The translations under genes were made by a program, and so were the position numbers. Under the pieces are notes generated by a model. The model did not search any database, was not told the DNA's origin, and was given only the letters and a program-made list of their open reading frames with translations. Source: the human T2T-CHM13v2.0 reference genome, Homo sapiens. From it: a DNA stretch of 64,000 nucleotides. The stretch lies in assembly GCF_009914755.1 (NCBI RefSeq), contig NC_060944.1. One strand, given 5' to 3'. This document shows, one piece after another, positions 11,434-61,500 of the stretch (position 1 is the stretch's first letter; every line of letters begins with the position of its first letter).

Positions 11434-11907
<474 letters not shown>

Positions 11908-14010: not shown

Positions 14011-14363
<353 letters not shown>

Positions 14364-19052: not shown

Positions 19053-19365
19053 GGCCGGGCTCAGTGGCTCATGCCTGTAATCCCAGCACTTTGGGAGGCC
19101 GAGGAGGGTGGATCACCTGAGGTCAGGAGTCTGAGACCAGCCTGGCCGACATGGTAGAACCCCTTCTCTACTAAAACCATGAAAATTAGCTGGGCATTGG
19201 TGGCATGCACCTGTAGTCCCAGCTACTCTGGAGGCTGAGGCAGGAGAATCGCTTGAACACGGAAGGTGGAGGTTGAAGGAGTAGAGATCATGCCACTTCA
19301 CTCCAACCTGGGTGACAGAGCGACACTCTGTCTCAAAAAATAATAATAATTTAAAAAGAAAAAGG
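19053..19365 (+). mobile_element. AluS
   Basis: Full-length Alu with TSD of about aaaaagagaaaggca. Confidence 0.95.
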
Positions 19366-19375
19366 CAAAAATTAT

Positions 19376-19680
19376 GGCCGGGCACGGTGGCTCATGCCTG
19401 TAATCCCAGCACTTTGGGAGGCCGAGGTGGGCGGATCACAAGGTCAGGAGATCGAGACCATCCTGGCTAACACGGTGAAACCCTGTCTCTACTAAAAATA
19501 CAAAAAATTAGCCAGGCAAGGTGGCGGGCGCCTGTAGTCCAAGCTACTCGGGAGGCTGAGGCAGGAGAATGGCATGAACCCGGCGGGGCAGAGCCTGCAG
19601 TAAGCCGAGATGGCACCACTACACTCCAGCCTGGGTGACAGCGAGACTCCATCTCAAAAAAAATAAAAGAAAAAAGAAAA
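19376..19680 (+). mobile_element. AluY (AluYe-like), inserted at the 3' TSD of the preceding Alu
   Basis: GGCAAGGTGGCGGGC, GAGCCTGCAG and GACAGCGAGAC diagnostics. TSD aaaagaaaaaggcaaaaatt. Confidence 0.95.
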
Positions 19681-19689
19681 AGGCAAAAA

Positions 19690-20680
19690 TTCAAACAGCT
19701 AAACAGAAACTGGACAAAAGAGTTGAACCAGCCCTTCACAGAAGGGGAAATGTGAAGGAATGGCCAACAAACACATGAAGAGGGTCTCAGCCTAACAGGA
19801 TGAGGTACCACGTGACACCCACCAGACTGGCAAAAATCCCACAACCCAAGAAATGCAAGGGTTGGGGAGAATGGAGAGCAACAAGAACACTCAGCCACTG
19901 CTAAGAAAGGTTGTGAACTTTTGTTGTTGTTGTTATGCTTCCATATGAAAGGCTGTGTGTTGTGGGTTATGAGGAAAATTACATTTCTTAACTGGGATGA
20001 AATTTTAAAAATTGAAAGCTACTGACCAGAAGAAACTTGCATTTGTGTACAAAAGAAATGCCCAAGAACGTTCTAGCAACACAGTCCTAAGGGCCCAACC
20101 TGCCCAAACCCTCATCCACAGGAAAATGAAGACATTTCCCACGTTCCCCTCATACCACGGGCGATCACGCAGCAATGAAAATGAACCATGTCAGTGTGGA
20201 TGGGTCTCAGGAAGAGAATGCAGGACAAAAATAGACATCGAGCAAATGCAAATGCTCAGACCCAATGCAGCATAGGAGCAGCCACACAGGAGAATTTCTT
20301 CACATCCAAGTTCAAAACTACAGCCGAGGCAACAGAGCAAGACCCTGTCTCAAAAAGACAACAGAAAGTTCAAACACTAAATGGCATATTGTTTAGGGAT
20401 GTACACATACGTGGTGAAAGAAACGTGCTATGAAGAAAAGTACGGGATTAATAAAGACTAAAGTGGAAAGTGATTCCCTCTGCAGAAGGGAAGGGACTGG
20501 GATTCGGGAGGGGCCGCCAGGGAACATCCACAGTTATGTCTCTTCAGATTCTGTTCCCTAAACTTGGTGGAGGTCCTGTGTGTCCAGTGTGTCGATGTTC
20601 TTTATACCTTGCCCATATTGTACAAATGCTTTTTTCTATTTAATATTTAGAAGACAGTTATACACAAGATGCATTAAATA
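19690..20680 (+). mobile_element. Old L1M LINE 3' fragment
   Basis: ggccaacaaacacatgaag...atgaggtaccac...accagactggcaaaaat, followed by degenerate L1M 3'UTR-like sequence. Confidence 0.6.
20322..20366 (+). mobile_element. Severely 5'-truncated Alu
   Basis: ggcaacagagcaagaccctgtctcaaaaa flanked by an aagttcaaa direct repeat. Confidence 0.7.
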
Positions 20681-20685
20681 GCAAG

Positions 20686-20950
20686 ATGGCAGATGAACAT
20701 CAGGAAGGAACATTAGGAACATCCATGGTGTTCCATCCAGGAACCTTCACCATGGAAACCCCTGTGCTCATGGGCCTGGTCTCAAGACACAGTCAGTTGG
20801 GGATCAGAGGCCACACTCATCGTAGCAGAGAGGCAGGAACAGCTGGGCGAGGGTCCTTCTGTGACATCTACTGCATCACTGGGCTCTGTGAAGTGACTCA
20901 GCTGCCAGAACTCACACAATATTCTGCACCAAAACCTCACGGGAAAAATG
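20686..20950 (+). other. Exon-like ATG-to-splice-donor segment, copy A (coding status unsupported)
   Basis: caagATGG start context and an open frame up to AATG/gtaagt. It is retained in copy B. Confidence 0.3.
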
Positions 20951-21389
20951 GTAAGTTTGAAGTTTCTCCATTAGTAGCAACTCTCAGATTAATCTCTGTC
21001 CTCCATCGCTTCTCCATGAAACAACGTTTTATACCTTTGCTTGGGTCTATTTTTCCATTTATTTTTTATTTTACTAACTGATTGAAAGATATATACTGTA
21101 CGTGTGTGATTTTGTCTCTATCAGCCAGGATAATCATGGTTTAATTCCTATTATTATTATTACCAACATCCTTTAGTTTTTTTAAGCTTTTCAATTCCTA
21201 AGGGTAATCAAGTTCTTTCTGCCTCCTGAGACAGAAAACAAATCCAAACTGTGCAAGAGAAAAACGAATGCATTGATCACTAGGACTCACAAGTTCCCAG
21301 GTTTAATCTGCTTGAGAAACAGTTACACCAATGGTTTCAAGTGGCATCCTGTGATTCATTCTCTCTCTCCTCCTCTCTTCTCTCTCTCC

Positions 21390-24300
21390 TTACCCAACAC
21401 CGGCACCATATTTAGCATCACGAACCTCAGACTTAAACAGCACAACAGGCTCCTCCCAGGTCTCCAGCTACACAACCCTCAGACTTAAACAACAGCAGCG
21501 GCACCAGCTCCTCCCTGGGTCTCCAGCTCCACAAACCTCAAATTAGAACAGCAGCACTGGCTACACCCAGTCTCCAGCTCTACACCTCTAACTTGAACTA
21601 CAGCCACCAGCTCCTTCCTGGGTCTCCGGCTCCACAGACCTTAAACGAAAACAGCAGCACTGGCTCCTCCCCAGGTCCCCAGCTACAGACCCTCAAACAA
21701 GAAGAACAGCAGCACCAGCTCCACCTAAAGTCTCCAGCTCCACACCTCAAACTAGAACTTCAGCACCCGCTCCTCCCCGAGTCTCAATATCTGTGACCCT
21801 CAAAATAAAACAGCAGGACCAGCTCCTCCTCTGGTCTTCAGCTTCACGACCTTAACTGTAACAGCACCACCCGCTCCTCCGGGGTCAACAGCTCCGACGC
21901 TAAAACTAGAACAGCAGACCAGCTTCTACCTAAAACACCAGCTCCGAGACTCTCAAACAAGAACAGCAGCACTGACTTCTCTCACCAGGTCTCCAGCTCC
22001 ACGATCCTGAAACTTGAACGGCAGCACCCGCTCCTCCCCGGGTCTCCAGCTCCACGAACCTCAAACTTGAACAGCAGCACCCGCTCCTCCCAGCGTCTCC
22101 AGCTCCATGAACCTCAAACTTGAACAGCAGTACCCGCTCCTCCCCGGGTCTCCAGCTCCACGAACCTCAAACTTGAACAGCAGCACTCGCTCCTCCCAAG
22201 GTCTCCAGCTCTGCGAACCTCAAACTTGAACTGCAGCACCTGCTCCTCCCCGGGTCTCCAGCTCCACGAACCTTAAACTAAAACAGCAGTACTCACTCCT
22301 CCCCAGATCCCCAGCTGCAGACCCTCAAGCTGCAACAGCAGCACCATCTCCTCTCCAGGTCTCCAGCTCCATGGACCTTAAACTAGAACAGCAGCACCAG
22401 CTCCTCCTTGGGACAACAGCTCCAAGACCCTCAAACTACAACAGCAGCCCTGACTCCTGCCCAGGTTTACAGCTCCACAAACGTCAAACTTGAACTTCAG
22501 CACTAGCTGAAGTCTCCAGCTCCCTGACCCTCAAACTAGAACAGCAGCACCATCTCCTCTCTGGGTCTCCAGCTCCACGAACCTCAAACTTGAACTGCAG
22601 CACCTGCTCCTCCCTGGATCTCCAGCTCCACGGACCTTAAACTAAAACAGCAGTACTCGCTCCTCCCCAGGTCCCCAGCTGCAGACCCTCAAACTGCAAC
22701 AGCAGCACCATCTCCTCTCTGGGTCTCCAGCTCCATGGACCTTAAACTAGAACAGCAGCACCAGCTCCTCTCCTGGTCTCCAGCTCCAGGACCCTAAAAC
22801 TAGAACAGCAGCACCAGCTCCTCCTTGGGACAACAGCTTTAAGACCCTCAAACTACAACAGCAGCCCTGACTCCTGCCCAGGTTTACAAACCTCAAACTT
22901 GAACTTCAGCACTGGCTGAAGTCTCCAGCCCCATGACCCTCAAACTAGAACAGCAGCACCATCTCCTCTCTGGGTCTCCAGCTCCATGGACCTTAAACTA
23001 AAACAGCAGCACCAGCTCCTCCCGAGGTCCCCATCTACAGACCCTCAAACTACAGCAGCACCAGCTCCACCCAAAGTCTCCAGCTCCCCACCTCAAACTA
23101 GAACTCCAGCACCCGCTCCTCCCCGAGTCTCAATATCCGCCACTCTCAAACAGCAGCACCGGCTCCTCCCCTGGTCTTCAGCTTCACGACCCTAACTATA
23201 ACAGCACCACCCGCTCTTCCGGGGTCAACAGCTCCAAGACTCTAAAACTAGAACAGCAGACCAGCTTCTACCCAGGTCACCAGCTCCGAGACTCTCAAAC
23301 TAGAACAGCAGCCTTAACTTCTCGCCAAATCTCCAACTCCACGACCCTTAAACTTGAACTGCAGCACTTGCTCCTCCCCAGGTCCCCAGCTACAGACCCT
23401 CAAACTAAACAGGAGCACTGACTTCTGCCCACATATCCAGCTCCACGAACCTCAAAGTTAAACTTCAGTACCAACTCCTTCCCGCGTCTCCAGCTCCACG
23501 ACCCTCAAACTACAATAGCAACACTGGCTCCCCAATCCCAGGTCTCCATCTCCACGACCATCAAACTTGAGTTGCAACACTGGCTCCACCCAAATTCTCC
23601 AGCTCCAGGATGCTAACTGTAATAGCAGCACCAGCTCCTCTGCAGGTCACCAGCTCCAAGACTCTCAAACTAGTACAGCAGCACTGACGCCTGCCCAGGT
23701 TTCCAGCTCCATGAACCTCAAACTTGAACTGCAGCACCACCTCCTCCCTGGTTCTCCAGCTTCACGACCCTCAAACTAGAACAGCAGCACCAGCTCCAAC
23801 CAAAGTCTCCATCTCCACGCCTCCAACTTGAACTCCAGCACCAGCTCCTTCCTGGGTCTCATGATCCATGACCCTGAAAATAAAACAGCAGCACCAGCTC
23901 CTCTCTAGGTCTCCAGCTCCACGAACCTCAAATTTAAAAAGCAGCCCTGGCTCTAACCCAGGTCTCCAGCTCCACCATCGTCAAACTTGAACGGCAGCAC
24001 TAGCTCCTCCCAAAGTCTCCAGCCCCACGACCCTAAAACATGAAGAGCAGCATTGGCTCCTCCCCAGGTCTTCAGCTTCACAACCCTAACTCTTACAGCA
24101 ACACCCGCTCCTCCCCAGGTTGCCAGCTCCAAGACCCTAAAACTAGAACAGCAGACCGGCTCCTACTCAGGACACCAGCTCCAAGACTGTTAAACTAGAA
24201 CAGCAGCACTGATTTCTCACCAGGTCTCCAGCTCCACGACCCTCACACTGGAACTACAGCAACAGCTCCGCCCAGGTCTCCAGCTCCAGGGACCTTAAAC

Positions 24301-26560
24301 TAAAATAGCAGCACCAGCTCCTCTGCAGGTCCCCAGCTACAGACCCTCAAACTAGAATAGCAGCACCATCTCCTCTCCAGTTCTCCAGCTCCACGACCTT
24401 GAAACTAGAAAAGAAACACTGACTCCCCCCCACCACCAATCTCCATCTCCAGGAACATCAAACTTGAACTACAACAGCGGCTCAACCCAAAGTCTCCAGC
24501 TCCCCGACACTAACTACAACAGCAGCACCAGCTCCTCCCTGGCTCACCAGCTCCAAGATCCTCAAACCAGAACAGCAGCACTGACTCCTGCCCAGGTCAC
24601 CAGCTCCAAGACCCTCAAACCAGAACAGCAGCACTGACTCCTGCCCAGGTCACCAGCTCCAAGACTCTCAAACTAGAATAGCCACACTGACTCCTGTCCA
24701 GGTCACCAGCTCCAAGACTTTCAAACTAGAATAGCCACACTGACTCCTGTCCAGGTTTCCAGCTCCATGAAACTCAAACTTGAATTGCAACACTGGCTCC
24801 TCTCCAGGTCTCCAGCCACTCATCCCTCAAACTGTTGCTCCTCCCTGTGTCTCCAGCTTCATGACCCTCAAACTTGAACTGGGGCACCCGTTCCTCCCCG
24901 GGTCTCCAGCTCCACGACACGTGAACTGCAGCACTTGATCCTTCCTGAGTCTCCAGCTCCATGACCCTTATACTTGAACAGCAGCACCAATTCCTGCCCA
25001 GGTCTCCAGCCTCATGACCTTCAAATTTAAAAAGCAGAACTGGCTCCAACCCAGGTCTCCAGCTCCACCATCATCAAACTTGAATGGCAGCACTAGCTCG
25101 CCACAAAGTCTCCAGCTCCCATGACCCTCAAATGTGAACAGCAGCACTGGCTCCTCCCCAGGTGTTCAGTTTCACGACCCTAACTATTACAGCAACACCT
25201 GCTCCTCCCCAGGTCACCAACTCCAAGACCCTAAAACTAGAACAGCAGACCGGCTCCTACCCAGGTCACCAGCTCCAAGACTCTCAAACTAGAACAGCAG
25301 CACTGACTTCTTGCCAGGTCTCCAGCTCCATGACCCTCAAGCTTGAACCGCAGCAACAGCTCCACCCAGGTCTCCAGCTCCACAAACCTTAAACAACAGC
25401 ACCGGCTCCTCCAGAGGTCCCCAGCTACAGACCCTCAAACTAGAACAGGAGCACTGACTCCTGCCCAGATATCCAGCTCCACGAACCTCAAACTTGAACT
25501 GCAGTACCAGCTCCTTCCCGGGTCTTTAGCTCCGTGACCCTGAAAATAAAACAGCAGCACTGGCTTTTCCCCAGATCCCCAGCTCCACGACCCTCAAATT
25601 TAAAAAGCAGCACCAGCTCCTCCCTGGGTCAGCACCTCCATGACCCTCAAACCTGAACTGCAGCACTGGCTCCTCCCCGGGTCACCAGATCCCAGACCCT
25701 CAAACTAGAACAGCAGCACTGACTCCTCCCCATATCTCCAGCTCCATGACCATCAAACTTGAAGACTAGCACCATTTCCTTTCTGGGTCTCCAGCTCCAC
25801 GACCCTCAGACTTGAACAGCAGTGCCAACTCCTTTCTGGGTCTCCAGCTCCACTATCTTCAGACTTGAACAGCAGCACCAGCTTCTCCCCAGGTCTCCAG
25901 CTCCATGACCCTCAAACAGGAACAGCAGCACCGGCTCCTCCCTGGGTCTCCAGCTCCTCAAGTCTGAGGATCATGGAGCTGGAGACCCAGAAAGGCAATG
26001 GTGCTACTCTTCAAGTCTGAGGGTCATGGAACTGGAGACCCGGGGAGGAGCTGGTGCTACCGCTGTTCAAGTTTGAGCATCTTGGAGCTGGAGACCCAGG
26101 GAGCCGCCACTCGAACGGTAGCTCCTCCCCCAGTCTCTAGCTCCATGACCCTCAAACTCGAAGAGTAGCACCATTTCCTTTCTGGGTCTCCAGCTCCATG
26201 ACCCTCAGACTTGAACAGCAGCACCAGCTCCTTTCTGGGTCTCCAGCTCTCCTATCTTCAGACTTGAATGGCAACACCAGCTTCTCCCCACGTCTCCAGC
26301 TCCACGACCCTCAGACTTCGACAGCAATCCGGCTCTTCCCCTGGTCTCCAGCTCCATGACCCTCAAACTAGAACAGCAGCACCGGTTCCTTTCTGGGTCT
26401 CCAGCTCCACGATATTCAGACTTGAATGGCAGCACCAACTTTTCCCTGGGTCTTCAGCTCCATGACCTTCAGACTTGAACGGCAGCACTGGCTCCTCCCC
26501 TCTCCAGCTCCATGACCTTCAGACTTGAACGGCAGCGCCGGCTCCTCCCTGGGTCTCGAA
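21390..26560 (+). repeat. SATR1/SATR2-like satellite array A, degenerate ~53-bp monomer
   Basis: Tandem unit of about gaccctcaaactagaacagcagcaccagctcctccctgggtctccagctccac (53 bp); e.g. gcagcacccg at 22021 and 22074. The family name is from my recall of the SATR consensus. Confidence 0.85.
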
Positions 26561-26697
26561 CCTGCCCAGCCTGCAGATTTTGGACTTGCTAGCCTTCAGG
26601 ATCACATTAGCCAATTCCTTAAACTCAACCTCTTTCTCTGTATGTAGGATATGGACACCTCCTGCTGGCTCTTTTTCCGGAGAGCCCAGTGAACACA
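26560..26697 (+). mobile_element. MLT2-like (ERVL) LTR 3' end contiguous with satellite A
   Basis: ctgcagattttggacttgctagccttcaggatcacattagccaattccttaaa...ctctttctc...cctgctggctctttttccggagagcccagtgaacaca resembles the MLT2 3' terminus as recalled (...ctgcagatcttgggacttctcagcctccataatcacgtgagccaattcc...tctctggagaaccctgactaataca). Confidence 0.75.
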
Positions 26698-28899
26698 CCG
26701 TGCATCAGGCTCCATCATTCACCAGAGCGTCTTTCCAACAGACTTTGCTGTGATATTTCTTAAATAAAGGTCACTCCAAAGACCCTCACCTCTGGATTGT
26801 AACCAACTCAGTGGCAGACTTAATCCATTTCTATCTGCTGACATTTCTCACATGGAATAGGCTGTTTGACAGATTGAAGCTGTCTCCCCCCACTCCCCAG
26901 GCCAGTGCACACTTATCTCCCTTGAATGTTCATTTTGTGCTCATTTTAGAGACTGAGGCACAAAGACAGGCAAATACAAGGTGAAGTCAGTGACAAATAA
27001 ACAATGCTATTTAGGCATTGAGAGTTTGTTTTTGTGTTTGTGTTTTTTTGCTAATTAATTCCACCTGGTAGAGGAGGGCGAGGGGAAAGAGGAAGGGAGA
27101 AGTTTCCTGGCAGGGCTGAGAGGCAGAATGGTGCCTGCACCTCCTGGAGTGCACGGCAATGGTCTGGCTCTGCTGCCTTCTATGGGTAAGGGCCCACCGG
27201 TTTTTTTTCTGGGACTTAAGTCACCTGGGCTTATACTGAGCAGCCCTCAGCAAGCTCTTCTCACTTGCCCCTGCCACCCAGAGCTCCAGGATGCCCTAGT
27301 TCCTGCCCCTCAAAGACCTGGGACTCCTGCTCCTGGGACCTTCTGGTCGGTTCTGCTTTTCCTTGCTTCAGGACCTTACGTGGATTCTGTCACCTGCCAC
27401 CTCAGAACTCTGAGCGACACACCCACTGCATGTCACCCAGGACAGGTTCACCCAAGTCTTTCATCCCAAGAAGGTCCTTCCTGGCACCTTGTGGGCTGAC
27501 AGCATCTCCAGGGAACCACAGGACTTCGAGGGGGCCTGGGAAGCATCAAGAGCTTCAGGAGGGGAGTCTGTCACAGGTGGGGATTACGGAGCCCTGCAGG
27601 GACCCTTAGAACAGGTGGGTCGGGGTGGGGCTGAGGTCTCGACGCCTTGATTCAGGTTCCTGGCTTATGTCGACCTGTCTGAAATCTCCCACCCACAGCC
27701 AAGCCACTGGCCACCCCACTGCTGCCCTGTGTCACCCTGTTTTGATGGAGAGCTCACCAGGCTCTCCCAGCTGCTCTCCTCTTGGAGCAGGGAGTGTTGG
27801 AAGTGGGGGGCTGATCTGCATATGAACGTGGCTCTTAACCAGGTGAGGGGCTTGAAGTCCTCTGGGGCTAATGACTGTTCCATGAATAATGGTCCCTCTT
27901 AAAATGTAATTAAACATTTATCAGATGTATTTCTACAGAAACATCCATCTTAAGGGGGGACCGGATTTCCTACCATTCATATCAGTCTCCTGAAATGAGG
28001 CAGAGGCACTCCCGGCTCCCCCTCCCCTCCCCGGCCTCAGTTCCCTGGGCCGGATGTCCTGCTGGGGCCTGTGGTGCAGTTTCGGCTGGTTCACCCCATG
28101 CAGAGCTTGATGGGGTTGGGTTGGTTTTAATCAGAATGGTAAATTGCAAATGATACAGGGCCTGGGCTCTGTTGGGATACTTGTGTTGACCAAGTCCCTT
28201 GTGAATTAAATCATTTAATACTGGAAATGGAAAAGGCCCCCTCATTTTCCTTCTGAATGAGCTGTGAAATAGGCTCTGAGAACGGCCTCCAGAGTGAAGT
28301 GGTTGTCAGGGCTTGGCACCAAGATCTGATGAGGGGTCAGAAGACAGGGCACCAGCAGGACAGGGTACTTGGGGAGGCCTATCATGATGCGCAGTAGACG
28401 CATCCTGTGTCGGCAGCACCCCAAACTCGGGAGGCTGGCCGGGGTGCAGCTAACATACCTGGGATGTGTGCACTGACTGCATGCCACCTGAGGCACCCTC
28501 GGAGCATCTGAGAACCAAAGAATCACTCCTCAGCTTCCCAACCAGGGGACAAGTTTGGGCTCTGGCATGGGACAGCTCTTGTCTGCACTCCGAATCTCTG
28601 ACCTTTCTCAATGCAGTGCTGGGGTTGACTTGGCAGATGAGGCTGCTGGGACTCAAATCACCTCACTGGCTTGAAGTCGTATTTAATCTGCTCCCAAGAA
28701 GGTGGAGCCAAGGACTAGCTGGTCCCAGCCATGAATTCTCTGAAAATTAGAAGAATAACAAAGCATATCAAATAGGATTAACACAAACACTTTTCAACAC
28801 AGTGCCTGTGAGGCAACAGAAACATGAGCACAGGATGCCCATCAGTGGGGGGCCACCAGGGCCCAATGTCTCCAAAAGCAACTTGCTGGATGTATCAAG

Positions 28900-29380
28900 A
28901 GCTTAAATTTAAAAAGCACTTAATCCCTGATGCAGTTATCACACACATAAGATATTATCTTAAGGAGCTGTTTATAAATGCAAACCAAGATTATGTAGTA
29001 ATATGATCATTGCCACATAAACTGCAACAGCAAAAGTTGGAAGCAGTACAAATGTCCAGCAACATAGGAATGGAGAAGAGTGCACGGGTTTTCCAGACAG
29101 GGAAATATTGAAGGATGATTTGATCATATGCTTGCCTGAAATTTTCAATAGTGTGGAAAGTGCTCGTGATTTCATGTGAAGTGAAAAAAATGGATACAAA
29201 AACGTGGATTTTACACTTTTATCACACACACACCCATATTCAGAGGAAATAGTTAAATAAGAGACAGAGCAAGGTACCAACAGTAGTAACATGTCAGTGG
29301 TAACATTATAGATGGTTTTCATTTTCTTTTTCATAGTTGTTGGTATGTTTCAAAAATGATCAGGTCTTTGAAAATCAGAA
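28900..29380 (+). mobile_element. Old L1M LINE fragment
   Basis: AT-rich; gcaaaagttggaagcagtacaaatgtccagcaacatagga...gtgaagtgaaaaaaatggatacaaaa. Confidence 0.55.
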
Positions 29381-29899
29381 GGAAAATCAGAAGCAAGAGC
29401 ACCAATTGCTACCAGGTGAAAACCACAATATTCTCTAGCAATTTCTGCAAACTATAGGATCCTTCATAAAATATACAGGTCCTTTAATAATTGATATGTT
29501 CAATTTTTCAATAAAAATTCTGATGTAAAATAAGGAAAGAAACATTCAAAGTATTCATTTTGATCTTGTACTCATGTTTGAGAAAGATACAGAGCAGTCA
29601 AATTACTTTGGAAAGTGTAAAAATTGGTGGTTTCATTTTAAATTGCTACCTCTAACACCTTCATGTGACTTCAGTAACCTATCTGCTCCCTGACAACCTT
29701 AAAGTGCTTAATTACCACAAATTTCTGAAATAAATCTATCATTTGAATAACCTTTGTGAAAATCAGTATTGAGTGCTTTTACATGATTTGATCACAGCAA
29801 TAGAAACAGTCCCATTTGTCTCTGCACATGCAAATGACTTATTAACATTCAAGTGATGAGTTCACTTTACTGAGATTCCCAAGATATGCATAATCCCCA

Positions 29900-30520
29900 A
29901 ACATTACTACCCTCCCTAAAGTCCTTTAATATCATCCCTTTGCTCTAGGACGCCCTGATTCCTCACCAGCTTACATTCCCAGCAGCATCTGGCCGTCTTG
30001 CCCTCTCTGCTACCCCTGGCCTTATCACAGTTCCTCAAACTGAACAGGCTCAGCCCAACCCAGCACCTTGGCACTTGCTGTGCTTCGCAGAGCTCCCATC
30101 CAGTTCTTGCCCCACTCAGCTCCACCCTGTGGGATGTTCCTTAGTTCCAAGAAGGCACGGCATCCTCCTCACCCCCAGTCCTTTGCACACGCTGTTCCCT
30201 TTGCTAAAACATTCTTCCCCTCCCACCACCTGCAGTTACCTGGCTAATTCCTGCTTCCCTTTGATAGACTTTCCCTCCATTCTCAAACCCTATGCCCCAA
30301 GCTCCTGTCCCCGACCCAGGATCAAACTCTATAATCCCCCAAATGTTTCCTTTGCAGCATTTTGCACATTCAGTTACTGGATGGTATTTTCATTGAGTCT
30401 TTGAATAGTTGGCTTCCCGTCTGGTCTGGAAACTCCATGAGGGCAGAGAATGAAAGTCATGCACTCACCCCAGCAGGTTGCCTGTTAACAAAGATTAATT
30501 GAATGACTGGTAGATTTGCA
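29900..30520 (+). mobile_element. L2 LINE fragments
   Basis: ctttgcacacgctgttccct...actccatgagggcagaga...ttaattgaatgact. Confidence 0.6.
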
Positions 30521-31025
30521 CAGCATTTAGGCTTTTGTGCCCTGTGCTGGAATCATTCTGTGCTTGTATATTAAGCCACTTTACCTGAGTGGAATTTCCT
30601 TTGTCATACTACCTGCAGGTTTAGTGAAATGACAGTCCCTGTGGAGGACAGAGAAGCCTCCAGCTGCCTCCCTATGCTGGGATGGGAATGGGGGAACAAG
30701 ACTAGATGGATCCATGAAGGAATGAAACACACCACACAAGAGCACCAGTATCTGTTCACCTGCTACACATCAGTCATTAATGGCATCCAAAAGGAAAAGA
30801 CCCTTTCTCCTGTATGACATCCATCCCTGTACCTGTCCCAGCCCTGGAACCACCAGAAGGAACAGCGGAGAAGGGGACCCCAAGCCTTAGTTAGAAGTGA
30901 GTAGGGGGAGAGGAAAAGCTTGGAATTAAATGTGAGATTAAAATTTAGATTTGGACCAGCCTAGGCTTTTACTACCTGGATGAGAGTGAGAATGATTGAT
31001 GAGCTTGTTCTTATAAATAGAAGTG

Positions 31026-31735
<710 letters not shown>

Positions 31736-49194: not shown

Positions 49195-52100
49195 CTTTGG
49201 CTCCATGTTTAGCTCCACGACCCTCAGGCTTAAACAGCAGTACTGGCCCCTCCCCAGATCTCCAGCTCCCTGACCCTCAAACTCCAACTGCAGCACCAGC
49301 TCCGCCCCGGGTCTCCAGCTCCACAATCCTCAAACTACAACAGCAGCACCAGCTCCCCTGTGGATCTCCAGCTCAATGACTCTCAGACTTGGGAGGCGGC
49401 ACCGGCTCCCCACCAAGCCTCCAGCTCCACAACCTTCAAACTAGAACAGCAGCACCGGCTACCCCCTGGGTCTCCAGCTCCCTCAAAATTCAACTATAGC
49501 ACTGGCTCTTCCCCGAGCCACCAGCTCCACAACCCTCAACTTACACAGTGGTAGCACCAGCTCCTCCCTAGGTCTCCAGCTACACGACCGTCAAACTTGA
49601 ACTGCAACACCAGCTCCTCTTCGGCCTCCAGCTCCACAATCCTCCAACAACAACAGCAACACCGGCTCCTCCCTGAATCTCCAGCGCAACAACCCTCAGA
49701 CTTGAGAGGTAGCACCGACACCTTCCCCAAGGCTCCAGCTCCATGACCCTCAGATTTGAACAGCGGTAGCACCAGCTCCTGTCCAGGTCTCCAGCTTCAT
49801 GATCCTTAAACTAGAACAGCAGCACTGCCGCCTCCCTGGGTTTCCAGCTCCATGACCCTAAGACATGAATGAAAGAACTGGGTCACCCCAGGGCTCCAAC
49901 TCCAAGACCCACAGATTTGAACGGCAGCACCGGCTCTTCCTGGGATCTGCAGCTCCACAGCCTTCAAACTAGATCAGCAGCACCGGCTCCTCCCTGGGTC
50001 TCCAGCTACACAATCCTCAGACATGAACAATAGCACCGGCTCCTCCCTGGGTCTCCAGCTTCACTACCCTCAGACTAGAACAGCAACACTGGTTCCTCCC
50101 TGGGTCTCCAGCTCTACAATCCTCAGACATAAACAGCAGCACCACCGGCTCCTACCCTTGTCTCCACTTCCACGACCCTCAAACTACAACAGCAGTACCG
50201 GCCTCTCCCCAGGTCTCCACATCCATGACCCTCAAAATAGAATGGCATCATCGGATCCCTCCTGGGTCTCCAGCTCCCAAACCCTCAAACTTCAATTGAC
50301 ACACCGGATCCTCCCCACAGTTAAACAGCAGCACAGGCTGTTCCCAAAAGCTCCAGATCCATGATCCTCTGACTTAAATGGCGGTAGCACCGGCTCCTCC
50401 CCAGGTCTCCAGTTCCACAACCCTCAAACTACACAGCAGCACCGGCTCCTCCCCAGGTCCACAGCTCCACCACCCTCATACTAGACACCAAGACTACCTC
50501 CTCCCTGCTCTCCAGCTACACGACCCTCAGTCTTGAACAGCAGCAGCTCCTCTCTGTACCTCAAGCCCCACGACCCTCAGACTTGAACAAGAACAACACC
50601 ATCTCCCCCCAGGGCTCCAGCTCGGGGACCTACAGATTTAAACAGCAGCACCGGCTCTTCCTGTGATCTCCAGCTCCACTAACCTCAAACTAGAATAGCA
50701 GCACCGGCTCCTCTTTGGGTCTCCAGCTTCACTACTGTCAGGCTGGAACAGCAACACCGGTTCCTCCCTGGGTCTCCAGCTCAACGACTCTCAGATTTGA
50801 AAGGCAGCACCGGCTCCTCACAAAGTTTCTGGCTCCAAGGCCCTCAAACTAGAATAGCAGCAGCTGCTGCATCTTGGGTCTCCAGCTCCACAACCCTCAA
50901 AGTAGAAAAGCAGCCCTGGCTCCTCCCTGCCTCTCCAGCTCCTCAAGTCTGAGTGTTGTAGAGCTGGAGACGCAGGGAGGAGTCAGTGCTGCTGTTCTAG
51001 TTTGAGGGTCGTGGATCTGGAGACCCAGGGTGGAGCCGGTGCTGCTGTTCTAGTTTGAGGGTCATGGAGCTGGAAGACCCCGGGAGGAGCTGCTGCTGCT
51101 GTTCTAGTGTGAGGGTCATGGAGCTGGAGACCCGGGAAGGAGTCATTTGAACAGCAGCACTGGCCCCTCCCCAGGTCTCAGGCTCCACGACCCTCAGACT
51201 TAAAAAGCCGTAGTACGGGCTTCTCCCTGGGTCTCCAGCTCTACAACCCTCAGACATGAACAGCAGCACCGGCTCCTCCCCCTGTCTCCCGTTCCATGAC
51301 CCTCAAACTACAACAGCAGTACCAGCCTCTACCCAGGTCTCCAGATCCACGACCCTCAAAATAGAATGGCATCACCAGCTCCTCCCTGGGTCTCCAGCTC
51401 CCAAACCCTCAAACTTCAACTGACACAGCAGATCCTCCCCACAGTTAAACAGCAGCATGGGCTGTTCCCCAAAACTCCAGATCCCTCTGACTTAAATGGC
51501 GGTAGCACCAGCTCCTCCCCAGGTCTCCAGTTCCATGACCCTCAAACTACAACAGCAACACAGGCTCCTCCCTGAATCTCCAGCTCAACAACTCTCAGAC
51601 TTGAGAGGCAGCACCGGCAACTCCCCAAGGCTCCAGCTCCACCACCCTCAGATTTGAACAACCGTAGCACGACCTCCTGACCAGGTCTCCAGCTTCATGA
51701 TCCTTAAACTAGAACAGCAGCACCGCTGCCTCCCTGGGTTTCCAGCTCCACGACCTTAAGACACGAATGGCAGAACTGGCTCCCCACCAGGGTTCCAGCT
51801 TCGGGACCTATAGATTTAAATGACAGCACCGGCTCTTCCCAGGATCTCCAGCTCCACTCCCCTCAAACTAGAACAGCAGCATCAGCTCCTCCCTGGCTCT
51901 CCAGCTCCCAAACCCTCAAACTTCAACTGACACACAGGATCCTCCCCACAGTTAAACAGCAGCATGGGCTGTTCCCCAAAACTCCAGATCCACAACCTTC
52001 TGACTTAAATGGCGGTAGCACTGGTTCCTCCCTAGATCTCCAGTTCCATGATCCTCAAATTACACAGCAGCACTGGCTCCTCCACAGGTCTCCAGCTCCA

Positions 52101-52530
52101 CCACCATCACACTAGACACCAAGACTACCTCTGCCCCTCTCTCCAGCTACACGACCCTCAGACTTGAACACCAGCAGCAGCTCCTTCCTGTACCTCAAGC
52201 CCCATGACCTCGGATTTGAACAACAACAACACCAGCTCCTGCCTAGGGCTCCAGCTGCAGAACCCACAGATGTAAACGATGGCACCGGCTCTTCCCAGGA
52301 TCTCCAGCGCCACTACCCTCAAACTAAAACAGCAGCACCAGCTCCTTTCTGGTTCTCCAGTTCCATAACACTCAGGCATGAACAGCAGCACCCACTCCTC
52401 CTTCCGGCTCAAGATTCACTACCCTCAGACTAGTACAGCAAAACCGGTTCCTCCCTGGATCTCCAGCTAAATGACTCTCAGACTGGAAAGGCAGCACCAG
52501 CTCCTCCGTGGATCTCCGGCTCCACGACAC
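49195..52530 (+). repeat. SATR-like satellite array B, old degenerate ~53-bp layer
   Basis: Same monomer as array A with many substitutions. It has internal re-duplications, e.g. cctccccacagttaaacagcagca near 50310, 51434 and 51941. Confidence 0.85.
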
Positions 52531-55500
52531 TCAAAACAACACGGCTCCTCCCTGGGTCTGTACCTCCATGACCCTCAAACTACAACAACACTGCTCCTCC
52601 CTGGCTCTGCAGCTCCACCACCCTCAAACTAGAACAAGACTTCTCCTCCCCAGGGTGCCAGCTACCGAACCCTCAAATTACAACAACATTGCTCCTCCCT
52701 GGGTCTGTAGCTCCAGGACCCTCAGACCAGAACAAGACCTCTCCTCCCTGAGTCTCCAGCTTCCGGACCCTTGAATTACAACAACATTGCTCCTGCCTGG
52801 GTCTGCATCTCCACAACCCTCAAATTAAAACAAGATCTCTCCTCCCTGGGTCACCAGCTTCGTGACCCTCGAACTAAAACAACAATGCTCCTGCCTGGGT
52901 CTGCAGCTCCACGACCCTGAAACTAGAACAAGACTTCTCCACCCTGAGTCACCAGCTTCCTAACCCACGAACTACAGCAACATTGCTCCTGCCTGGGTCT
53001 GCAGCTCCATGAACATCAAACTAGAACAAGACTTCTCCTCCCTGGGTCGCCAGCCTTCTGACACTCAAACTAAAACAACAGTGCTCCTGCCTGGGTCTGC
53101 AGCTCCATGACCCTCAAACGAAAACAAGACCTCTCCTCCCTGGGTCGCCAGCTTCCTCACCCTCAAACTACAACCAAATGGCTCCTCCCTGGTTCGGAAG
53201 CTCCACGACCCTGAAATTCGAACAAGACTTCTCTTCCCCCGGTTGCCAGTTACCGGAACCTTGAATTATACCAAAATTGCTCCTCCGTGGGTCTGCAGCT
53301 CCACGACCCTCAGACCAGAACAAGACCTCGCCTCCCCTGGGTCGCCAGCTTCCTGACCCTCGAATTACAACCAAATTGCTCCTCCCTGGGTCGACAGCTC
53401 CACGACCCTCAAACTCGAACAAGACTTCTCCTCCCCGGGTTGCCTGCTACCGGACCCTTGAATTACAACAAAATTGCTCCTCCCTGGTCCGGCAGCTCCA
53501 CGATCTTCAAACTAGAACAAGACCTCTCCTCCCTGGGTCGCCAGTTTCCGGACCCACCAATTACAACCAAATTGCTCCTCCCTGGTTCGGCAGCTCCACA
53601 ACCCTCAAACTAGAACAAGACCTCTCCTCCCTGGGTCTCCAGCTTCCAGACCCTCGAATGACAACCAAATTGCTCCTCCCTGGGTCTGCAGCTCCACCAC
53701 CCTCAAACTAAAACAAGACCTCTCCTCCCTGGGTCACCAGCTTCCTGACCCTCGAACTACAACAAAATTGCTCCTCCCTGATCAGCAGCTCCAACAGCCT
53801 CAAACTCGAACAAGACTTCTCCTTCCCAGGTTGCCAGCTACCAGACCCTCGAATTACAACAACATTGCTCCTCCCTGGGTCTGCAGCTCCACGACCCTCA
53901 GACCAGAAGAAGACCTCTCCTCCCCTGGGTCGCCAGCTTCCTGACCCTCGAATTACAACCAAATTGCTCCTCCCTGGGTCGGCAGCTCCACGACCCTCAA
54001 ACTCCAACAACACTTCTCTTCCCTGGGTTGCCAGCTACCGGACCCTTGAATTACAACAAAATTGCTCCTCCCTGGGTCTGCAGCTCCACGACCCTCACAC
54101 CAGAACAAGACCTCTCCTCCCTGGGTCGCCAGCTTTCGGACCCTCCAATTACAACAACATTGCTCCTCTCTGGTTCGGCAGCTCCACGACCCTCAAACTA
54201 CAACAAGACCTCTCCTCCCTGGGTCTCCAGCTTCCAGACCCTCGAATTACAACAGAATTGCTCCTCCCTGGGTCTGCAGCTCTACGACCCTCAAACTAGA
54301 ACAAGACCTCTCCTCCCTGGGTCACCAGCTTCCGGACCCCAGAATTACAACAACATTGCTCCTGCCTGGGTCTGCAGTTCCACAACCCTCAAACTAAAAC
54401 AAGACCTCTCCTCCCTGGGTCGCCAGATTCCTGACGCACGAATTACAACAAAATTGCTCCTCCCTGGTCGGCACCTCCACGAGCCTCAAACTCGAACAAG
54501 ACTTCTCCTCCCCAGGTTGCCAGCTACCACACCCTCGAATTACAACAACATTGCTCCTCCCTGGGTATGTAGCTCCACGACCCTCAGACCAGAAGAAGAC
54601 ATCTCTTCCCTTGGTCACCAGCTTCCGGACCCCCCAATTACAACCAAATTGCGCCTCCCTGGTTCGGCAGCTCCACGACCCTCAAACTAGAACAAGACCT
54701 CTCCTCCCTGGGTAGCCAGCTTCCGGACCCTCGAATTACAACAGCATTGCTCCTCCCTAGTTCGGCAGCTCCACGACCCTCAAACTAGAACAAGACCTCT
54801 CCTCCCTGGGTCTCCAGCTTCCAGACCCTCGAATTACAACCAAATTGCTCCTCCCTGGGTCTGCAGCTCCACCACCCTCAAACTAAAAGAAGACCTCTCC
54901 TCCCTGGGTCACCAGCTTCCTGACCCTCGAACTACAACAAAATTGCTCCTCCCTGATCAGCAGCTCCACCAGCCTCAAACTCGAACAAGACTTCTCCTTC
55001 CCAGGTTGCCAGCTACCAGACCCTCGAATTACAACAATATTGCTCCTCCCTGGGTCTGCAGCTCCATGACCCTCAGACCAGAAGAAGACCTCTCCTCCCT
55101 GGGTCGCCAGCTTCCTGACCCTCGAATTACAACCAAATTGCTCCTCCCTGGGTCGGCAGCTCCACGACCCTCAAACTCGAACAAGACTTCTCCTACCCGG
55201 GTTGCCAGCTACCGGACCCTTGAATTACAACAAAATTGCTCCTCCCTGGGTCTGCAGCTCCACGACCCTCATACCAGAACAAGACCTCTCCTCCCTGCGT
55301 CGCCAGCTTCCTGACCCTCGAATTACAACCAAATTGCTCCTCCCTGGGTCGGCAGCTCTACGACCCTCAAACTAGAACAAGACCTCTCCTCCCTGGGTCG
55401 CCAGCTTCCGGACCCTTGAATTACAACAACATAGCTCCTGCCTGGGTCTGCAGTTCCGCAACCCTCAAACTAAAACAAGACCTCTCCTCCCTGGGACACC

Positions 55501-58500
55501 AGCTTCCGGACCCTCCAATTACAACCAAATTGCTCCTCCCTGGTTCGGCAGCTCCATGACCCTCAAACCAGAACAAGACCTCTCCTCCCTGGGTCTCCAG
55601 CTTCCAGACCCTCGAATTACAACCAAATTCCTCCTCCCTGGGTCTGCAGCTCCACCACCCTCAAACTAAAACAAGACCTCTCCTCCCTGGGTCACCAGCT
55701 TCCTGACCCTCGAACTACAACAAAATTGCTCCTCCCTGATCAGCAGCTCCACCAGCCTCAAACTCGAACAAGACTTCTCCTTCCCAGGTTGCCAGCTACC
55801 AGACCCTCGAATTACAACAACATTGCTCCTCCCTGGGTCTGCAGCTCCACGACCCTCATACCAGAACAAGACCTCTCCTCCCCTGGGTCGCCAGCTTCCT
55901 GTCCCTCGAATTACAACCAAATTGCTCCTCCCTGATCAGCAGCTCCAGCAGCCTCAAACTCGAACAAGACTTCTCCTCCCGAGGTTGCCAGCTACCAGAC
56001 CCTCGAATTACAACAACATTGCTCCTCAGTGGGTCTGCAGCTCCACGACCCTCAGACCAGAAGAAGACCTCTCCTCCCCTGGGTCGCCAGCTTCCTGACC
56101 CTCGAATTACAACCAAATTGCTCCTCCCTGGGTCGGCAGCTCCACGACCCTCAAACTCCAACAACACTTCTCTTCCCTGGGTTGCCAGCTACTGGACCCT
56201 TGAATTACAACAAAATTGCTCCTCCCTGGGTCTGCAGCTCCACGACCCTCAGACCAGAACAAGACCTCTCCTCCCTGGGTCGCCAGCTTCCTGACCCTCG
56301 AATTACAACCAAATTGCTCCTCCCTGGGTCTGCAGCTCCACGACCCTCAGACCAGAACAAGACCTCTCTCCTCCCTGGGTCTCCAGCTTCCGGACCCTCA
56401 AATTACAACCAAATTGCTCCTCCCTGGGTCGGCAGCTTCACGACCCTCAAACTCGAACAAGACTTCTCCTACCCGGGTTGCCAGCTACCGGACCCTTGAA
56501 TTACAACAAAATTGCTCCTCCCTGGGTCTGCAGCTCCACGACCCTCATACCAGAACAAGACCTCTCCTCCCCTGGGTCGCCAGCTTCCTGACCCTCGAAT
56601 TAGAACCAAATTGCTCCTCCCTGGTTCGGCAGCTCCACGACCCTCAAACTACAACAAGACCTCTCCTCCCTGGGTCTCCAGCTTCCAGACCCTCGAATTA
56701 CAACAGAATTGCTCCTCCCTGGGTCTGCAGCTCTACGACCCTCAAACTAGAACAAGACCTCTCCTCCCGGGGTCTCCAGCTTCCGGACCCTTGAATTACA
56801 ACAACATTGCTCCTGCCTGGGTCTGCAGTTCCACAACCCTCAAACTAAAACAAGACCTCTCCTCCCTGGGTCGCCAGATTCCTGACCCACGAACTACAAC
56901 AAAATTGCTCGTCCCTGGTCGGCAGCTCCACGAGCCTCAAACTCGAAGAAGACTTCTCCTCCCCAGGTTGCCAGCTACCACACCCTCGAATTACAACAAC
57001 ATTGCTCCTCCCTGGGTATGTAGCTCCACGACCCTCAGACCAGAACAAGACCTCTCCTCCCTGGGTCGCCAGCTTCCTGACCCTCGAATTACAACCAAAT
57101 TGCTCCTCCCTGGGTCGGCAGCTCCACGACCCTCAGACGAGAACAAGACCTCTCTCCTCCCTGGGTCTCCAGCTTCCGGACCCTCAAATTACAACCAAAT
57201 TGCTCCTCCCTGGGTCGGCAGCTCCACGACCCTCAAACTCCAACAACACTTCTCTTCCCTGGGTTGCCAGCTACCGGACCCTTGAATTACAACAAAATTG
57301 CTCCTCCCTGGGTCTGCAGCTCCACGACCCTCACACCAGAACAAGACCTCTCCTCCCTGGGTCGCCAGCTTCCGGACCCTCGAATTACAACAGCATTGCT
57401 CCTCCCTGGTTCGGCAGCTCCACGACCCTCAAACTAGAACAAGACCTCTCCTCCCTGGGTCTCCAGCTTCCAGACCCTCGAATTACAACCAAATTGCTCC
57501 TCCCTGGGTCTGCAGCTCCACCACCCTCAAACTAAAACAAGACCTCTCCTTCCTGGGTCACCAGCTTCCTGACCCTCGAACTACAACAAAATTGCTCCTC
57601 CCTGATCAGCAGCTCCACCAGCCTCAAACTCGAACAAGACTTCTCCTCCCCAGGTTGCCAGCTACCAGACCCTCGAATTACAACAACATTGCTCCTCCCT
57701 GGGTCTGCAGCTCCACGACCCTCAGACCAGAAGAAGACCTCTCCTCCCCTTGGTTGCCAGCTTCCTGACCCTCGAATTACAACCAAATTGCTCCTCTCTG
57801 GGTCGGCAGCTCCACGACCCTCAAACTCCAACAACACTTCTCTTCCCTGGGTTGCCAGCTACCGGACCCTTGAATTACAACAAAATTGCTCCTCCCTGGG
57901 TCTGCAGCTCCATGACCCTCACACCAGAACAAGACCTCTCCTCCCTGGGTCGCCAGATTTCGGACCCTCCAATTACAACAACATTGCTCCTCCCTGGTTC
58001 GGCAGCTCCACGACCCTCAAACTACAACAAGACCTCTCCTCCCTGGGTCTCCAGCTTCCAGACCCTCGGATTACAACAGAATTGCTCCTCCCTGGGTCTG
58101 CAGCTCTACGACCCTCAAACTAGAACAAGACCTCTCCTCCCTGTGTCTCCAGCTTCCGGACCTTTGAATTACAACAACATTGCTCCTGCCTGGGTCTGCA
58201 GTTCCACAACCCTCAAACTAAAACAAGACCTCTCCTCCCTGGGTCGCCAGATTCCTGACCCACGAACTACAACAAAATTGCTCCTCCCTGGTCGGCAGCT
58301 CCACGAGCCTCAGACTCGAACAAGACTTCTCCTCCCCAGGTTGCCAGCTACCACACCCTCGAATTACAACAACATTGCTCCTCCCTGGGTATGTAGCTCC
58401 ACGACCATCAGACCAGAAGAAGACATCTCCTCCCTGGGTCACCAGCTTCCGGACCCTCCAATTACAACCAAATTGCGCCTCCCTGGTTCGGCAGCTCCAC

Positions 58501-61500
58501 GACCCTCAAACTCGAACAAGACTTCTCCTACCCGGGTTGCCAGCTACCGGACCCTTGAATTACAACAAAATTGCTCCTCCCTGGGTCTGCAGCTCCACGA
58601 CCCTCATACCAGAACAAGACCTCTCCTCCCTGCGTCGCCAGCTTCCTGACCCTCGAATTACAACCAAATTGCTCCTCCATGGGTCGGCAGCTCTACGACC
58701 CTCAAACTAGAACAAGACCTCTCCTCCCTGGGTCGCCAGCTTCCGGACCCTTGAATTACAACAACATAGCTCCTGCCTGGGTCTGCAGTTCCGCAACCCT
58801 CAAACTAAAACAAGACCTCTCCTCCCTGGGTCACCAGCTTCCGGACCCTCCAATTACAACCAAATTGCTCCTCCCTGGTTCGGCAGCTCCATGACCCTCA
58901 AACCAGAACAAGACCTCTCCTCCCTGGGTCTCCAGCTTCCAGACCCTCGAATTACAACCAAATTGCTCCTCCCTGGGTCTGCAGCTCCACCACCCTCAAA
59001 CTAAAACAAGACCTCTCCTCCCTGGGTCACCAGCTTCCTGACCCTCGAACTACAAAAAAATTGCTCCTCCCTGATCAGCAGCTCCACCAGCCTCAAACTC
59101 GAACAAGACTTCTCCTCCCCAGGTTGCCAGCTACCAGACCCTCGAATTACAACAACATTGCTCCTCCCTGGGTCTGCAGCTCCACGACCCTCAGACCAGA
59201 AGAAGACCTCTCCTCACCTGGGTCGCCAGCTTCCTGACCCTCGAATTACAACCAAATTGCTCCTCCCTGGGTCGGCAGCTCCACGACCCTCAAACTCCAA
59301 CAACACTTCTCTTCCCTGGGTTGCCAGCTACCGGACCCTTGAATTACAACAAAATTGCTCCTCCCTGGGTCTGCAGCTCCACGACCCTCACACCAGAACA
59401 AGACCTCTCCTCCCTGGGTCGCCAGCTTTCGGACCCTCCAATTACAACAACATTGCTCCTCCCTGGTTCGGCAGCTCCACGACCCTCAAACTACAACAAG
59501 ACCTCTCCTCCCTCGGTCTCCAGCTTCCAGACCCTCGAATTACAACAGAATTGCTCCTCCCTGGGTCTGCAGCTCTACGACCCTCAAACTAGAACAAGAC
59601 CTCTCCTCCCTGGGTCTCCAGCTTCCGGACTCTCCAATTACAACCAAATTGCTCCTCCCTGGGTCGGCAGCTCCACGACCCTCAAACTAGAACAAGACCT
59701 CTCCTCCCTGGGTCACCAGCTTCCGGACCCTTGAATTACAACAACATTGCTCCTGCCTGGGTCTGCAGTTCCACAACCCTCAAACTAAAACAAGACCTCT
59801 CCTCCCTGGGTCGCCAGATTCCTGACCCACGAACTACAACAAAATTGCTCCTCCCTGGTCGGCAGCTCCACGAGCCACAAACTCGAACAAGACTTCTCCT
59901 CCCCAGGTTGCCAGCTACCACACCCTCGAATTACAACAACATTGCTCCTCCCTGGATATGTAGCTCCACGACCCTCAGACCAGAACAAGACATCTCCTCC
60001 CTGGGTCACCAGCTTCCGGACCCTCCAATTACAACCAAATTGCGCCTCTCTGGTTCGGCAGCTCCACGACCCTCAAACTAGAACAAGACCTCTCCTCCCT
60101 GGGTCGCCAGCTTCCGGACCCTCCAATTACAACAGCATTGCTCCTCCCTGGTTCGGCAGCTCCACGACCCTCAAACTAGAACAAGACCTCTCCTCCCTGG
60201 GTCTCCAGCTTCCAGACCCTCGAATTACAACAATATTGCTCCTCCCTGGGTCTGCACCTCCAACAACCTCAAACTAAAACAAGACCTCTCCTCCCTGGGT
60301 CACCAGCTTCCTGACCCTCGAACTACAACAAAATTGCTCCTCCCTGATCAGCAGCTCCACCAGCCTAAAACTCGAACAAGACTTCTCCTCCCCAGGTTGC
60401 CAGCTACCAGACCCTCGAATTACAACAACATTGCTCCTCCCTGGGTCTGCAGCTCCACGACCCTCAGACCAGAAGAAGACCTCTCCTCCCCTGGGTCGCC
60501 AGCTTCCTGACCCTCGAATTACAACCAAATTGCTCCTCCCTGGGTCGGCAGCTCCACGACCCTCAAACTCCAACAACACTTCTCTTCCCTGGGTTGCCAG
60601 CTACTGGACCCTTGAATTACAACAAAATTGCTCCTCCCTGGGTCTGCAGCTCCACGACCCTCACACCAGAACAAGACCTCTCCTCCCTGGGTCGCCAGCT
60701 TTCGGACCCTCCAATTACAACAACATTGCTCCTCCCTGGTTCCGCAGCTCTACGACCCTCAAATTAGAACAAGACCTCTCCTCCCGGGGTCTCCAGCTTC
60801 CGGACCCTTGAATTACAACAACATTGCTCCTGCCTGGGTCTGCAGTTCCACAACCCTCAAACTAAAACAAGACCTCTCCTCCCTGGGTCGCCAGATTCCT
60901 GACCCACGAACTACAACAAAATTGCTCGTCCCTGGTCGGCAACTCCACGAGCCTCAAACTCGAAGAAGACTTCTCCTCCCCAGGTTGCCAGCTACCACAC
61001 CCTCGAATTACAACAACATTGCTCCTCCCTGGGTATGTAGCTCCATGACCCTCAGACCAGAACAAGACCTCTCCTCCCTGGGTCGCCAGCTTCCTGACCC
61101 TCGAATTACAACCAAATTGCTCCTCCCTGGGTCTGCAGCTCCACGACCCTCAGACGAGAACAAGACCTCTCTCCTCCCTGGGTCTCCAGCTTCCGGACCC
61201 TCAAATTACAACCAAACTGCTCCTCCCTGGGTCGGCAGATCCACGACCCTCAAACTCGAACAAGACTTCTCCTACCCGGGTTGCCAGCTACCGGACCCTT
61301 GAATTACAACAAAATTGCTCCTCCCTGGGTCTGCAGCTCCACGACCCTCATACCAGAACAAGACCTCTCCTCACCTGGGTCGCCAGCTTCCTGACCCTCG
61401 AATTAGAACCAAATTGCTCCTCCCTGGGTCGGCAGCTCCACGACCCTCAAACTCCAAGAACACTTCTCTTCCCTGGGTTGCCAGCTACCGGACCCTTGAA

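What the first reader, a model, noticed from the sequence alone, without database searches (positions are those of the whole stretch)
26380..26697. Satellite A runs directly into an MLT2-like LTR 3' end, suggesting an LTR origin of the repeat unit
Seen: the last units (gaccttcagacttgaacggcagcgccggctcctccctgggtctc) continue with no junction into gaacctgcccagcctgcagattttggacttgctagcc...agccaattcc...ggagagcccagtgaacaca. From recall of MLT2 consensuses, the segment just upstream of that 3' end reads about gccttcggact...gaactacaccaccggctttcctgggtctccagct, which resembles the monomer. Inference: the satellite is a runaway tandem amplification of an internal ERVL LTR segment, with the parent LTR end still attached. 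This may already be noted in repeat databases.
Basis: partly seen in the sequence, partly recalled or inferred. Interest (0 to 1): 0.7.

Follow-up and report, generated by a model that had tools for sequence, protein, structure and literature searches.

The report
Retroviral parent of satellite D20S16
A human repeat (D20S16) reported as highly transcribed in early embryos runs here without a break into the end of an old retroviral LTR whose family carries the same 53-base unit in two copies, so this spot is likely where the whole repeat family was born.

Summary
The array at 21411-26557 is D20S16, not SATR; its position and unit count match element chr20#4 of Hu et al. 2025. Its last unit runs colinearly into a 140-bp LTR 3' end (26558-26697). 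That LTR family has 5-bp target duplications, and one copy precedes an Fv1-like (ERVL) gag. A subfamily carries its own internal dimer with the same 53-bp period as the satellite. The terminal unit is the most LTR-like of 381 units scored. Of 20 D20S16 array ends examined across the genome, only this one keeps the LTR tail. Of the other 19, 17 end in one shared flank, and that flank is paralogous to sequence 2.9 kb downstream of this tail. Best reading: the LTR's internal dimer expanded here, a neighbouring duplicate lost the tail by deletion, and that tail-less form spread by segmental duplication. The LTR's 5' half is missing, and A/B gene conversion blurs the order of events. The D20S16-MLT2B4 similarity is already published but was read as mis-annotation. 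My searches found no paper stating an LTR origin or a founder locus. Transposon-derived tandem repeats are a known class.

The parts
21411..25957 (+). Array A, main block of D20S16 53-bp units (about 87 copies)
   Evidence: TRF; monomer map; whole array about 97 units against 96 for chr20#4 in PMC12287470
25958..26105 (-). About 3 inverted units. The left junction is shared with array B, two other chr20 arrays, chr6 and chr7; the chr2/3/5/8 copies examined have different junctions
26121..26557 (+). Eight terminal units, more LTR-like on average (42.0 against 35.8 for the main block)
26505..26557 (+). Terminal unit, the most LTR-like of 381 units scored (50.9; LTR against LTR 52.7; shuffled 19.9)
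26558..26697 (+). 3' end of an MLT2-type ERVL LTR, colinear with the last unit; ends in CA; lacks the AATAAA found in 25 of 44 other copies
26698..29563 (.). Single-copy segment present only here and absent from the other arrays' 3' junction
   Evidence: only self and one 72-bp weak hit
29564..30249 (+). Old paralog (about 63% identity, 26-31% mismatches) of the 3' flank shared by 17 of 19 other D20S16 arrays
20576..21410 (+). 5' flank shared by the D20S16 duplicon family (17 loci). It holds the predicted lncRNA exon 1, the donor site, and the acceptor AG at 21414-21415
   Evidence: annotation of LOC105372645
4008..21362 (+). Region upstream of array A, colinear in patches with 37671-49184 upstream of array B (old tandem duplication; 5-33% mismatches)
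49208..64000 (+). Array B (about 333 units, matching chr20#5). It continues 2.3 kb past the window, ends in the shared flank and has no LTR tail

Best explanation
The D20S16 unit is homologous to a 53-bp segment that an ERVL LTR subfamily carries as an internal dimer, and the array here likely grew from that dimer inside this LTR copy, making this the likely founder locus of the family. SHOWN: unit-LTR homology, the same period, the colinear junction, the tail at 1 of 20 array ends, and the other arrays' 3' flank being paralogous to DNA 2.9 kb downstream of the tail. INFERRED order of events: (1) an MLT2B4-like LTR sat in one copy of an old tandem duplication at chr20:50.22-50.29 Mb; (2) its dimer seeded unequal exchange or slippage and grew into an array; (3) a deletion removed the LTR's 5' half; (4) at the paralogous site B, flank plus array became joined to the downstream flank, losing the tail and 2.9 kb; (5) this tail-less unit spread by DNA-level duplication (intron-like flank retained) to chr2, 3, 5, 6, 7, 8, 9 and 20, where 47-50-bp and 98-bp variants arose; (6) A and B went on exchanging sequence by gene conversion. 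Transcription is likely driven from the shared upstream flank with splicing into the first unit, not from the LTR promoter, which is gone.
For: Junction and homology. Period: of 18 copies chosen for matching a two-unit LTR query, the best internal period is 53 in 11 and 50-52 in 5, and all 18 lie above the shuffle maximum; L049 has three units. LTR status: at least 4 of 5 target-site matches in 10 of 25 copies against 3.3% of cross pairs; TG start in 20 of 25, CA end in 19 of 25. An ORF behind one copy matches Fv1-like proteins at E 9e-21, and the three-unit copy is followed by the same internal sequence. Terminal unit ranks first of 381. The tail is as diverged from its family as other copies are (0.24 against 0.25). 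Tail at 1 of 20 ends, shared flank at 17 of 19. The shared flank maps to 29564 onward (score 291-333 against shuffle maximum about 120), with further colinear blocks. Other copies' 5' flanks are nested truncations of A's.
Against: The 5' half of the LTR is not detectable in the window, 10 kb upstream or beside any fetched array, so no target-site duplication can tie array and tail to one insertion. In the 5'-flank tree A groups with the B clade (99/98), not at the midpoint root. A also shares an inversion junction with the B group and chr6 but not with the chr2/3/5/8 group. Both need A/B conversion; this fits A-B distances of 5%, 8% and 13% across thirds of the flank but is not proven. The LTR-likeness trend along the whole array is weak (Spearman 0.18, p=0.09). 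The contrast of the last 13 units (p=0.001) used a boundary chosen after seeing the data, and units are not independent. No orthologous genomes were available.
Confidence: 0.75

Rival explanations
1. The unit comes from an MLT2 LTR, but this tail is not the parent. A ready-made array was copied from site B onto site A and joined by homology to a separate resident LTR, deleting that LTR's 5' half.
For: One event explains the missing 5' half. A is nested with the B clade in the flank tree and shares its inversion.
Against: It needs a second MLT2 source for the array whose two halves both vanished, plus a homologous LTR that happens to sit at the paralogous position. The tail-less 3' junction is itself the form lacking 2.9 kb. 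In the third of the flank nearest the array, A is 13-15% from all groups, no closer to B than to chr8.
Confidence: 0.15
2. The LTR inserted before the A/B tandem duplication, so both copies inherited it and B later lost the tail. A and B are then co-founders.
For: The A/B background mismatch (25-33%) overlaps the pairwise mismatch among LTR tails (24-29%), so the two events cannot be ordered.
Against: The B-type flanks differ from A by only 9-16%, which points to a later transfer or conversion of flank and array. No LTR remnant is seen at B.
Confidence: 0.08
3. The satellite-LTR similarity is incidental and MLT2B4 calls inside D20S16 are only annotation errors. This is the reading of Hu et al. 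2025 extended to the origin of the repeat.
For: MLT2B4 calls inside arrays are indeed not insertions. 19 of 20 arrays have no LTR sequence beyond the unit.
Against: A 140-bp non-repeated LTR end follows the last unit in register, and the LTR subfamily has the same period. Units of all 14 array segments scored average 30-42 against LTR units, versus 19.9 for shuffles.
Confidence: 0.02

Closest known systems
D20S16 satellite, elements chr20#4 and #5 (Hu, Mizuguchi, Hashimoto 2025, PMC12287470; abstract to methods read, supplement legends seen, Table S1 is a picture and was not seen)
   Same: Same place (five chr20 clusters, 49.571-50.286 Mb), 53-bp type, about 96 units, 20 elements on the same chromosomes; similarity to MLT2B4 positions 272-368 noted.
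   Different: The paper treats the similarity as mis-annotation. In the text read it does not mention an origin, the retained LTR tail, the LTR's internal dimer, the shared flanks or a founder locus.
MLT2B4 / ERVL-B4 LTR (pairing from the table in Kojima 2018, PMC5753468, passage seen)
   Same: ERVL-type LTR of about 440-570 bp with 5-bp target duplications; the 97-bp D20S16-like stretch reported equals about two units.
   Different: Here only the last units and the 3' 140 bp remain. The subfamily name was not tested against Dfam or Repbase.
Transposon-derived tandem repeats, for example the LTR12 internal repeats (Ahmed and Liang 2012, PMC3389668, passages seen)
   Same: A repeat already present inside an LTR family expands at one insertion.
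   Different: That survey kept only arrays with at least 95% unit identity, which excludes this one (about 70%). Here the array then spread as part of a duplicon to 20 loci and lost its parent.

Membership tests
D20S16 satellite | 47-53-bp units (98-bp dimer in part), five clusters at chr20 49.571-50.286 Mb | tested here: met
D20S16 satellite | Match to the Dfam/Repbase D20S16 model | not testable with these tools
   No repeat library held; identity rests on coordinates and unit counts
SATR1/SATR2 | Match to SATR models | not testable with these tools
   No library; the locus is already accounted for as D20S16
LTR retroelement (family of the tail) | Interspersed multicopy element with fixed ends TG...CA | tested here: met
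   (20 of 25 TG, 19 of 25 CA); the window tail ends in CA at 26697
LTR retroelement (family of the tail) | 5-bp target-site duplication in family members | tested here: met
   10 of 25 at 4/5 or better against 3.3% null; 22 of 47 loci left out (19 with an end not found, 3 duplicates)
LTR retroelement (this copy) | Both ends and a target-site duplication present at this insertion | tested here: not met
   5' half not found; the copy is a truncated remnant
ERVL (class III ERV) | LTR followed by an ERVL-type gag | tested here: met
   the ORF behind the LTR in L068 matches Fv1-like proteins (47-51% identity). That Fv1 derives from ERVL gag is recalled. Pfam, PDB and Atlas gave nothing useful
ERVL (class III ERV) | pol (RT/integrase) in a linked internal sequence | tested here: inconclusive
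   No pol-like ORF was recognised by eye in the two fetched internals, which are interrupted by other repeats; only five gag-side ORFs were searched
MLT2B4 subfamily | Best match to the MLT2B4 model | not testable with these tools
   Name taken from PMC12287470; the internal dimer fits its 97-bp segment

The most novel reading that the evidence does not exclude
chr20:50.241-50.247 Mb is the single birthplace of all 20 human D20S16 arrays. One ERVL LTR's internal 53-bp dimer ran away, was captured as the spliced exon of a lncRNA unit, and the whole unit (promoter flank, intron, array and a new poly(A) flank) spread as a primate duplicon. The embryo-expressed elements are the founder and its neighbour.
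Probability: 0.55. Interest if true: 0.6.

Novelty: new member of a known kind. Interest (0 to 1): 0.45.

Why it matters
It gives a named human satellite a traceable birth: parent element, seed dimer, founder locus and route of spread, all testable in primate assemblies. It turns a published 'annotation error' into homology. It also suggests that D20S16 embryo and testis expression should be studied as a lncRNA duplicon driven from the shared flank, rather than as satellite transcription or LTR promoter activity. Transposon-derived tandem repeats are common, so the general mechanism is not a surprise.

Tried and rejected
LTR tail at the far end of array B or at other arrays: absent; one 28-bp hit beside the chr3 0.85-Mb array lies on a CT microsatellite and came from one query. 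Independent expansion of each array in its own LTR: rejected, because the arrays share 5' and 3' flanks. LTR 5' half near any array: the only hits were Alus inserted in two query copies. A summed-score scan with 40 natural 5' halves gave 37-45 on five flanks against shuffles of 38-43 and a positive control of 105-179; the best window tile scored 44. A by-eye resemblance in the flank about 100 bp upstream of the array did not exceed this null. Retrocopy dispersal: rejected, because the intron-like flank is kept. Pfam, PDB and Atlas searches on gag fragments: no informative hit. Exact DUX4 motif (recalled): 0 matches in the window. Bowden 1995 is not held, so it was not read.

Full report
Observation. 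TRF finds a 53-bp array at 21419-25957 (87 copies), a short inverted block, and 8 more units ending at 26557; a second array starts near 49210 and turns into 49/98-bp units. The stretch 26545-26700 has 352 candidate matches in the genome; 40 were scored, and the 39 other than self are 72-83% identical. In 24 of 29 fetched loci the alignment continues at least 37 bp into the last unit, and 23 of 29 have their best unit match abutting the tail. The tail ends in CA at 26697.

Identity of the satellite. Hu et al. 2025 (PMC12287470; abstract to methods read; supplement gave legends only) place five D20S16 elements at chr20 49.571-50.286 Mb, with 96 units in #4 (53-bp type) and 332 in #5, and 20 elements genome-wide. 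My searches found five chr20 clusters with those limits and 20 array ends in all. Array A (about 97 units) fits #4 and array B (17 kb, about 333 units) fits #5. [quoted passage not shown] It notes that MLT2B4 positions 272-368 resemble D20S16 and calls the MLT2B4 hits mis-annotation.

Identity of the tail. The dispersed matches share common start and end points. Among 25 copies with both ends found (47 loci examined; 19 lacked an end, 3 duplicates dropped), 20 start with TG, 19 end in CA, the median length is 443 bp, and 10 have at least 4 of 5 matching flank bases against 3.3% of cross pairs. One copy is followed by internal sequence with 927 candidate relatives. A second locus has the same LTR followed by the same internal sequence, and a natural ORF there matches Fv1-like proteins at E 9e-21. 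Fv1's ERVL gag origin is recalled; Kojima 2018 pairs MLT2B4 with ERVL-B4 (passage). The subfamily name was not tested, as no Dfam library was available.

The seed. Most copies found with the tail have one unit, but the best hit (L002) has an internal dimer of period 53 (27 of 35 matches; null maximum 19), and L011 has one of period 50. I searched with L002's dimer plus tail and fetched 18 of the 40 hits, chosen for covering most of the query. The best internal period is 53 in 11 of them and 50-52 in 5, with 65 and 38 in the other two; L049 has three units. This selection shows that the subfamily exists, not how common it is. The satellite's period therefore already exists in the LTR family. 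Scored against 17 two-unit LTR copies, 381 satellite units from 14 array segments average 30-42 by segment (shuffled 19.9). The unit touching the tail ranks first at 50.9, near the LTR-versus-LTR value of 52.7. The trend along the whole of A is weak (rho 0.18, p=0.09), and the contrast for the last 13 units is post hoc.

The family. Only A has the tail: all 29 LTR 3' queries hit 26564-26643, and no other fetched array end has it. Of the 19 other ends, 17 share one 3' flank; chr3 0.85 Mb and chr9 end in other sequence. That flank aligns to window 29564-30249 (about 63% identity; score 291-333 against shuffle maximum about 120) and continues in colinear blocks to 31993. The intervening 26700-29560 is single-copy. 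So the common form lacks the tail plus 2.9 kb relative to A. Seventeen loci share the 5' flank, and the 10 other flanks compared are nested truncations of A's upstream sequence. Window 4008-21362 is colinear with 37671-49184, with a background of 25-33% mismatches and patches of 5-19%. I read this as an old tandem duplication overlaid by gene conversion (inference). Flank distances of 13-17% between the main groups suggest spread some 40-55 million years ago at a recalled neutral rate; this is rough.

Results against. The LTR's 5' half is not found. A groups with the B clade in the flank tree and shares an inversion junction with the B group and chr6 but not with the chr2/3/5/8 group. A-B distance rises from 5% to 8% to 13% towards the array, where A is about equally far from all groups; this fits conversion but does not prove it. 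LTR insertion and the tandem duplication cannot be ordered. A more sensitive family-level search for a degraded 5' half was not run, so a faint remnant is not excluded.

Mechanism. Shown: homology, period, junction, single retention of the tail, shared flanks. Inferred: the dimer seeded unequal exchange in this LTR copy; the 5' half was deleted; a tail-less copy at site B spread by DNA duplication; exchange between A and B continued. The predicted lncRNA LOC105372645 splices into the first unit at 21416. The acceptor AG is present in 11 of 14 array starts and a donor-like motif (up to 3 mismatches allowed) in 10 of 14. AATAAA lies within 120 nt of the array end in 12 of 15 flanks, but not at A. 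Expression is therefore more likely driven from the flank than from the LTR; this is untested. I put the LTR origin of the unit at about 0.93 and this copy as founder at about 0.75.

Novelty. Searches: SATR1+MLT2 gave 0 papers; D20S16 gave 23, 22 listed; MLT2B4 gave 17, 15 listed; four combined searches on satellite origin followed. No listing states an LTR origin for D20S16. Passages of the Telomere-C preprint and of Yandim 2019 have no MLT2 mention; the preprint's supplements are closed. Bowden 1995 is not held, and Dfam and Repbase entry texts could not be read, so a database note may exist. Ahmed and Liang 2012 (passages) show that transposon-derived tandem repeats are common (23% of the minisatellites they surveyed). 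Verdict: a real, well-supported new case of a known kind, with an unusually complete history; interest 0.45.

Noticed in passing
window 4008-21362 against 37671-49184; 29593-31993 against L031 3302-7345: Old tandem duplication with patchy identity (5-33% mismatches), suggesting repeated gene conversion between copies 28-34 kb apart.
   Followed up: partly
window 20950-21416 and 48769-49213: Both predicted lncRNAs splice into the first satellite unit; the acceptor is kept in 11 of 14 array starts and a donor-like motif in 10 of 14.
   Followed up: partly
window 25958-26105, 50943-51145; L040, L041, L042, L044, L046: Most arrays carry a short internal inversion, with at least two distinct junction types, so inversions may have arisen more than once.
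   Followed up: partly
L049 with L067: Three-unit LTR followed by ERVL-like internal sequence, interrupted by other repeats and a GC-rich degenerate tandem repeat.
   Followed up: partly
L054: LTR copy with a private 65-bp tandem duplication (34 of 35 matches) covering the unit and the start of the tail; this region of the LTR seems prone to duplication.
   Followed up: no
window 19034-19693: The 5' limits of homology for the chr3, chr5 and chr6 copies fall inside the Alu pair here, as expected for Alu-mediated duplication.
   Followed up: partly
window 17732-20575: 2.8-kb segment present upstream of A, partly shared with the chr2/3/5/6/8 copies, and missing from the four B-group copies examined.
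   Followed up: yes
window 52500-64000: Switch from diverged 53-bp units to a more homogeneous 49/98-bp higher-order repeat (84% matches at period 98), likely a younger expansion.
   Followed up: no
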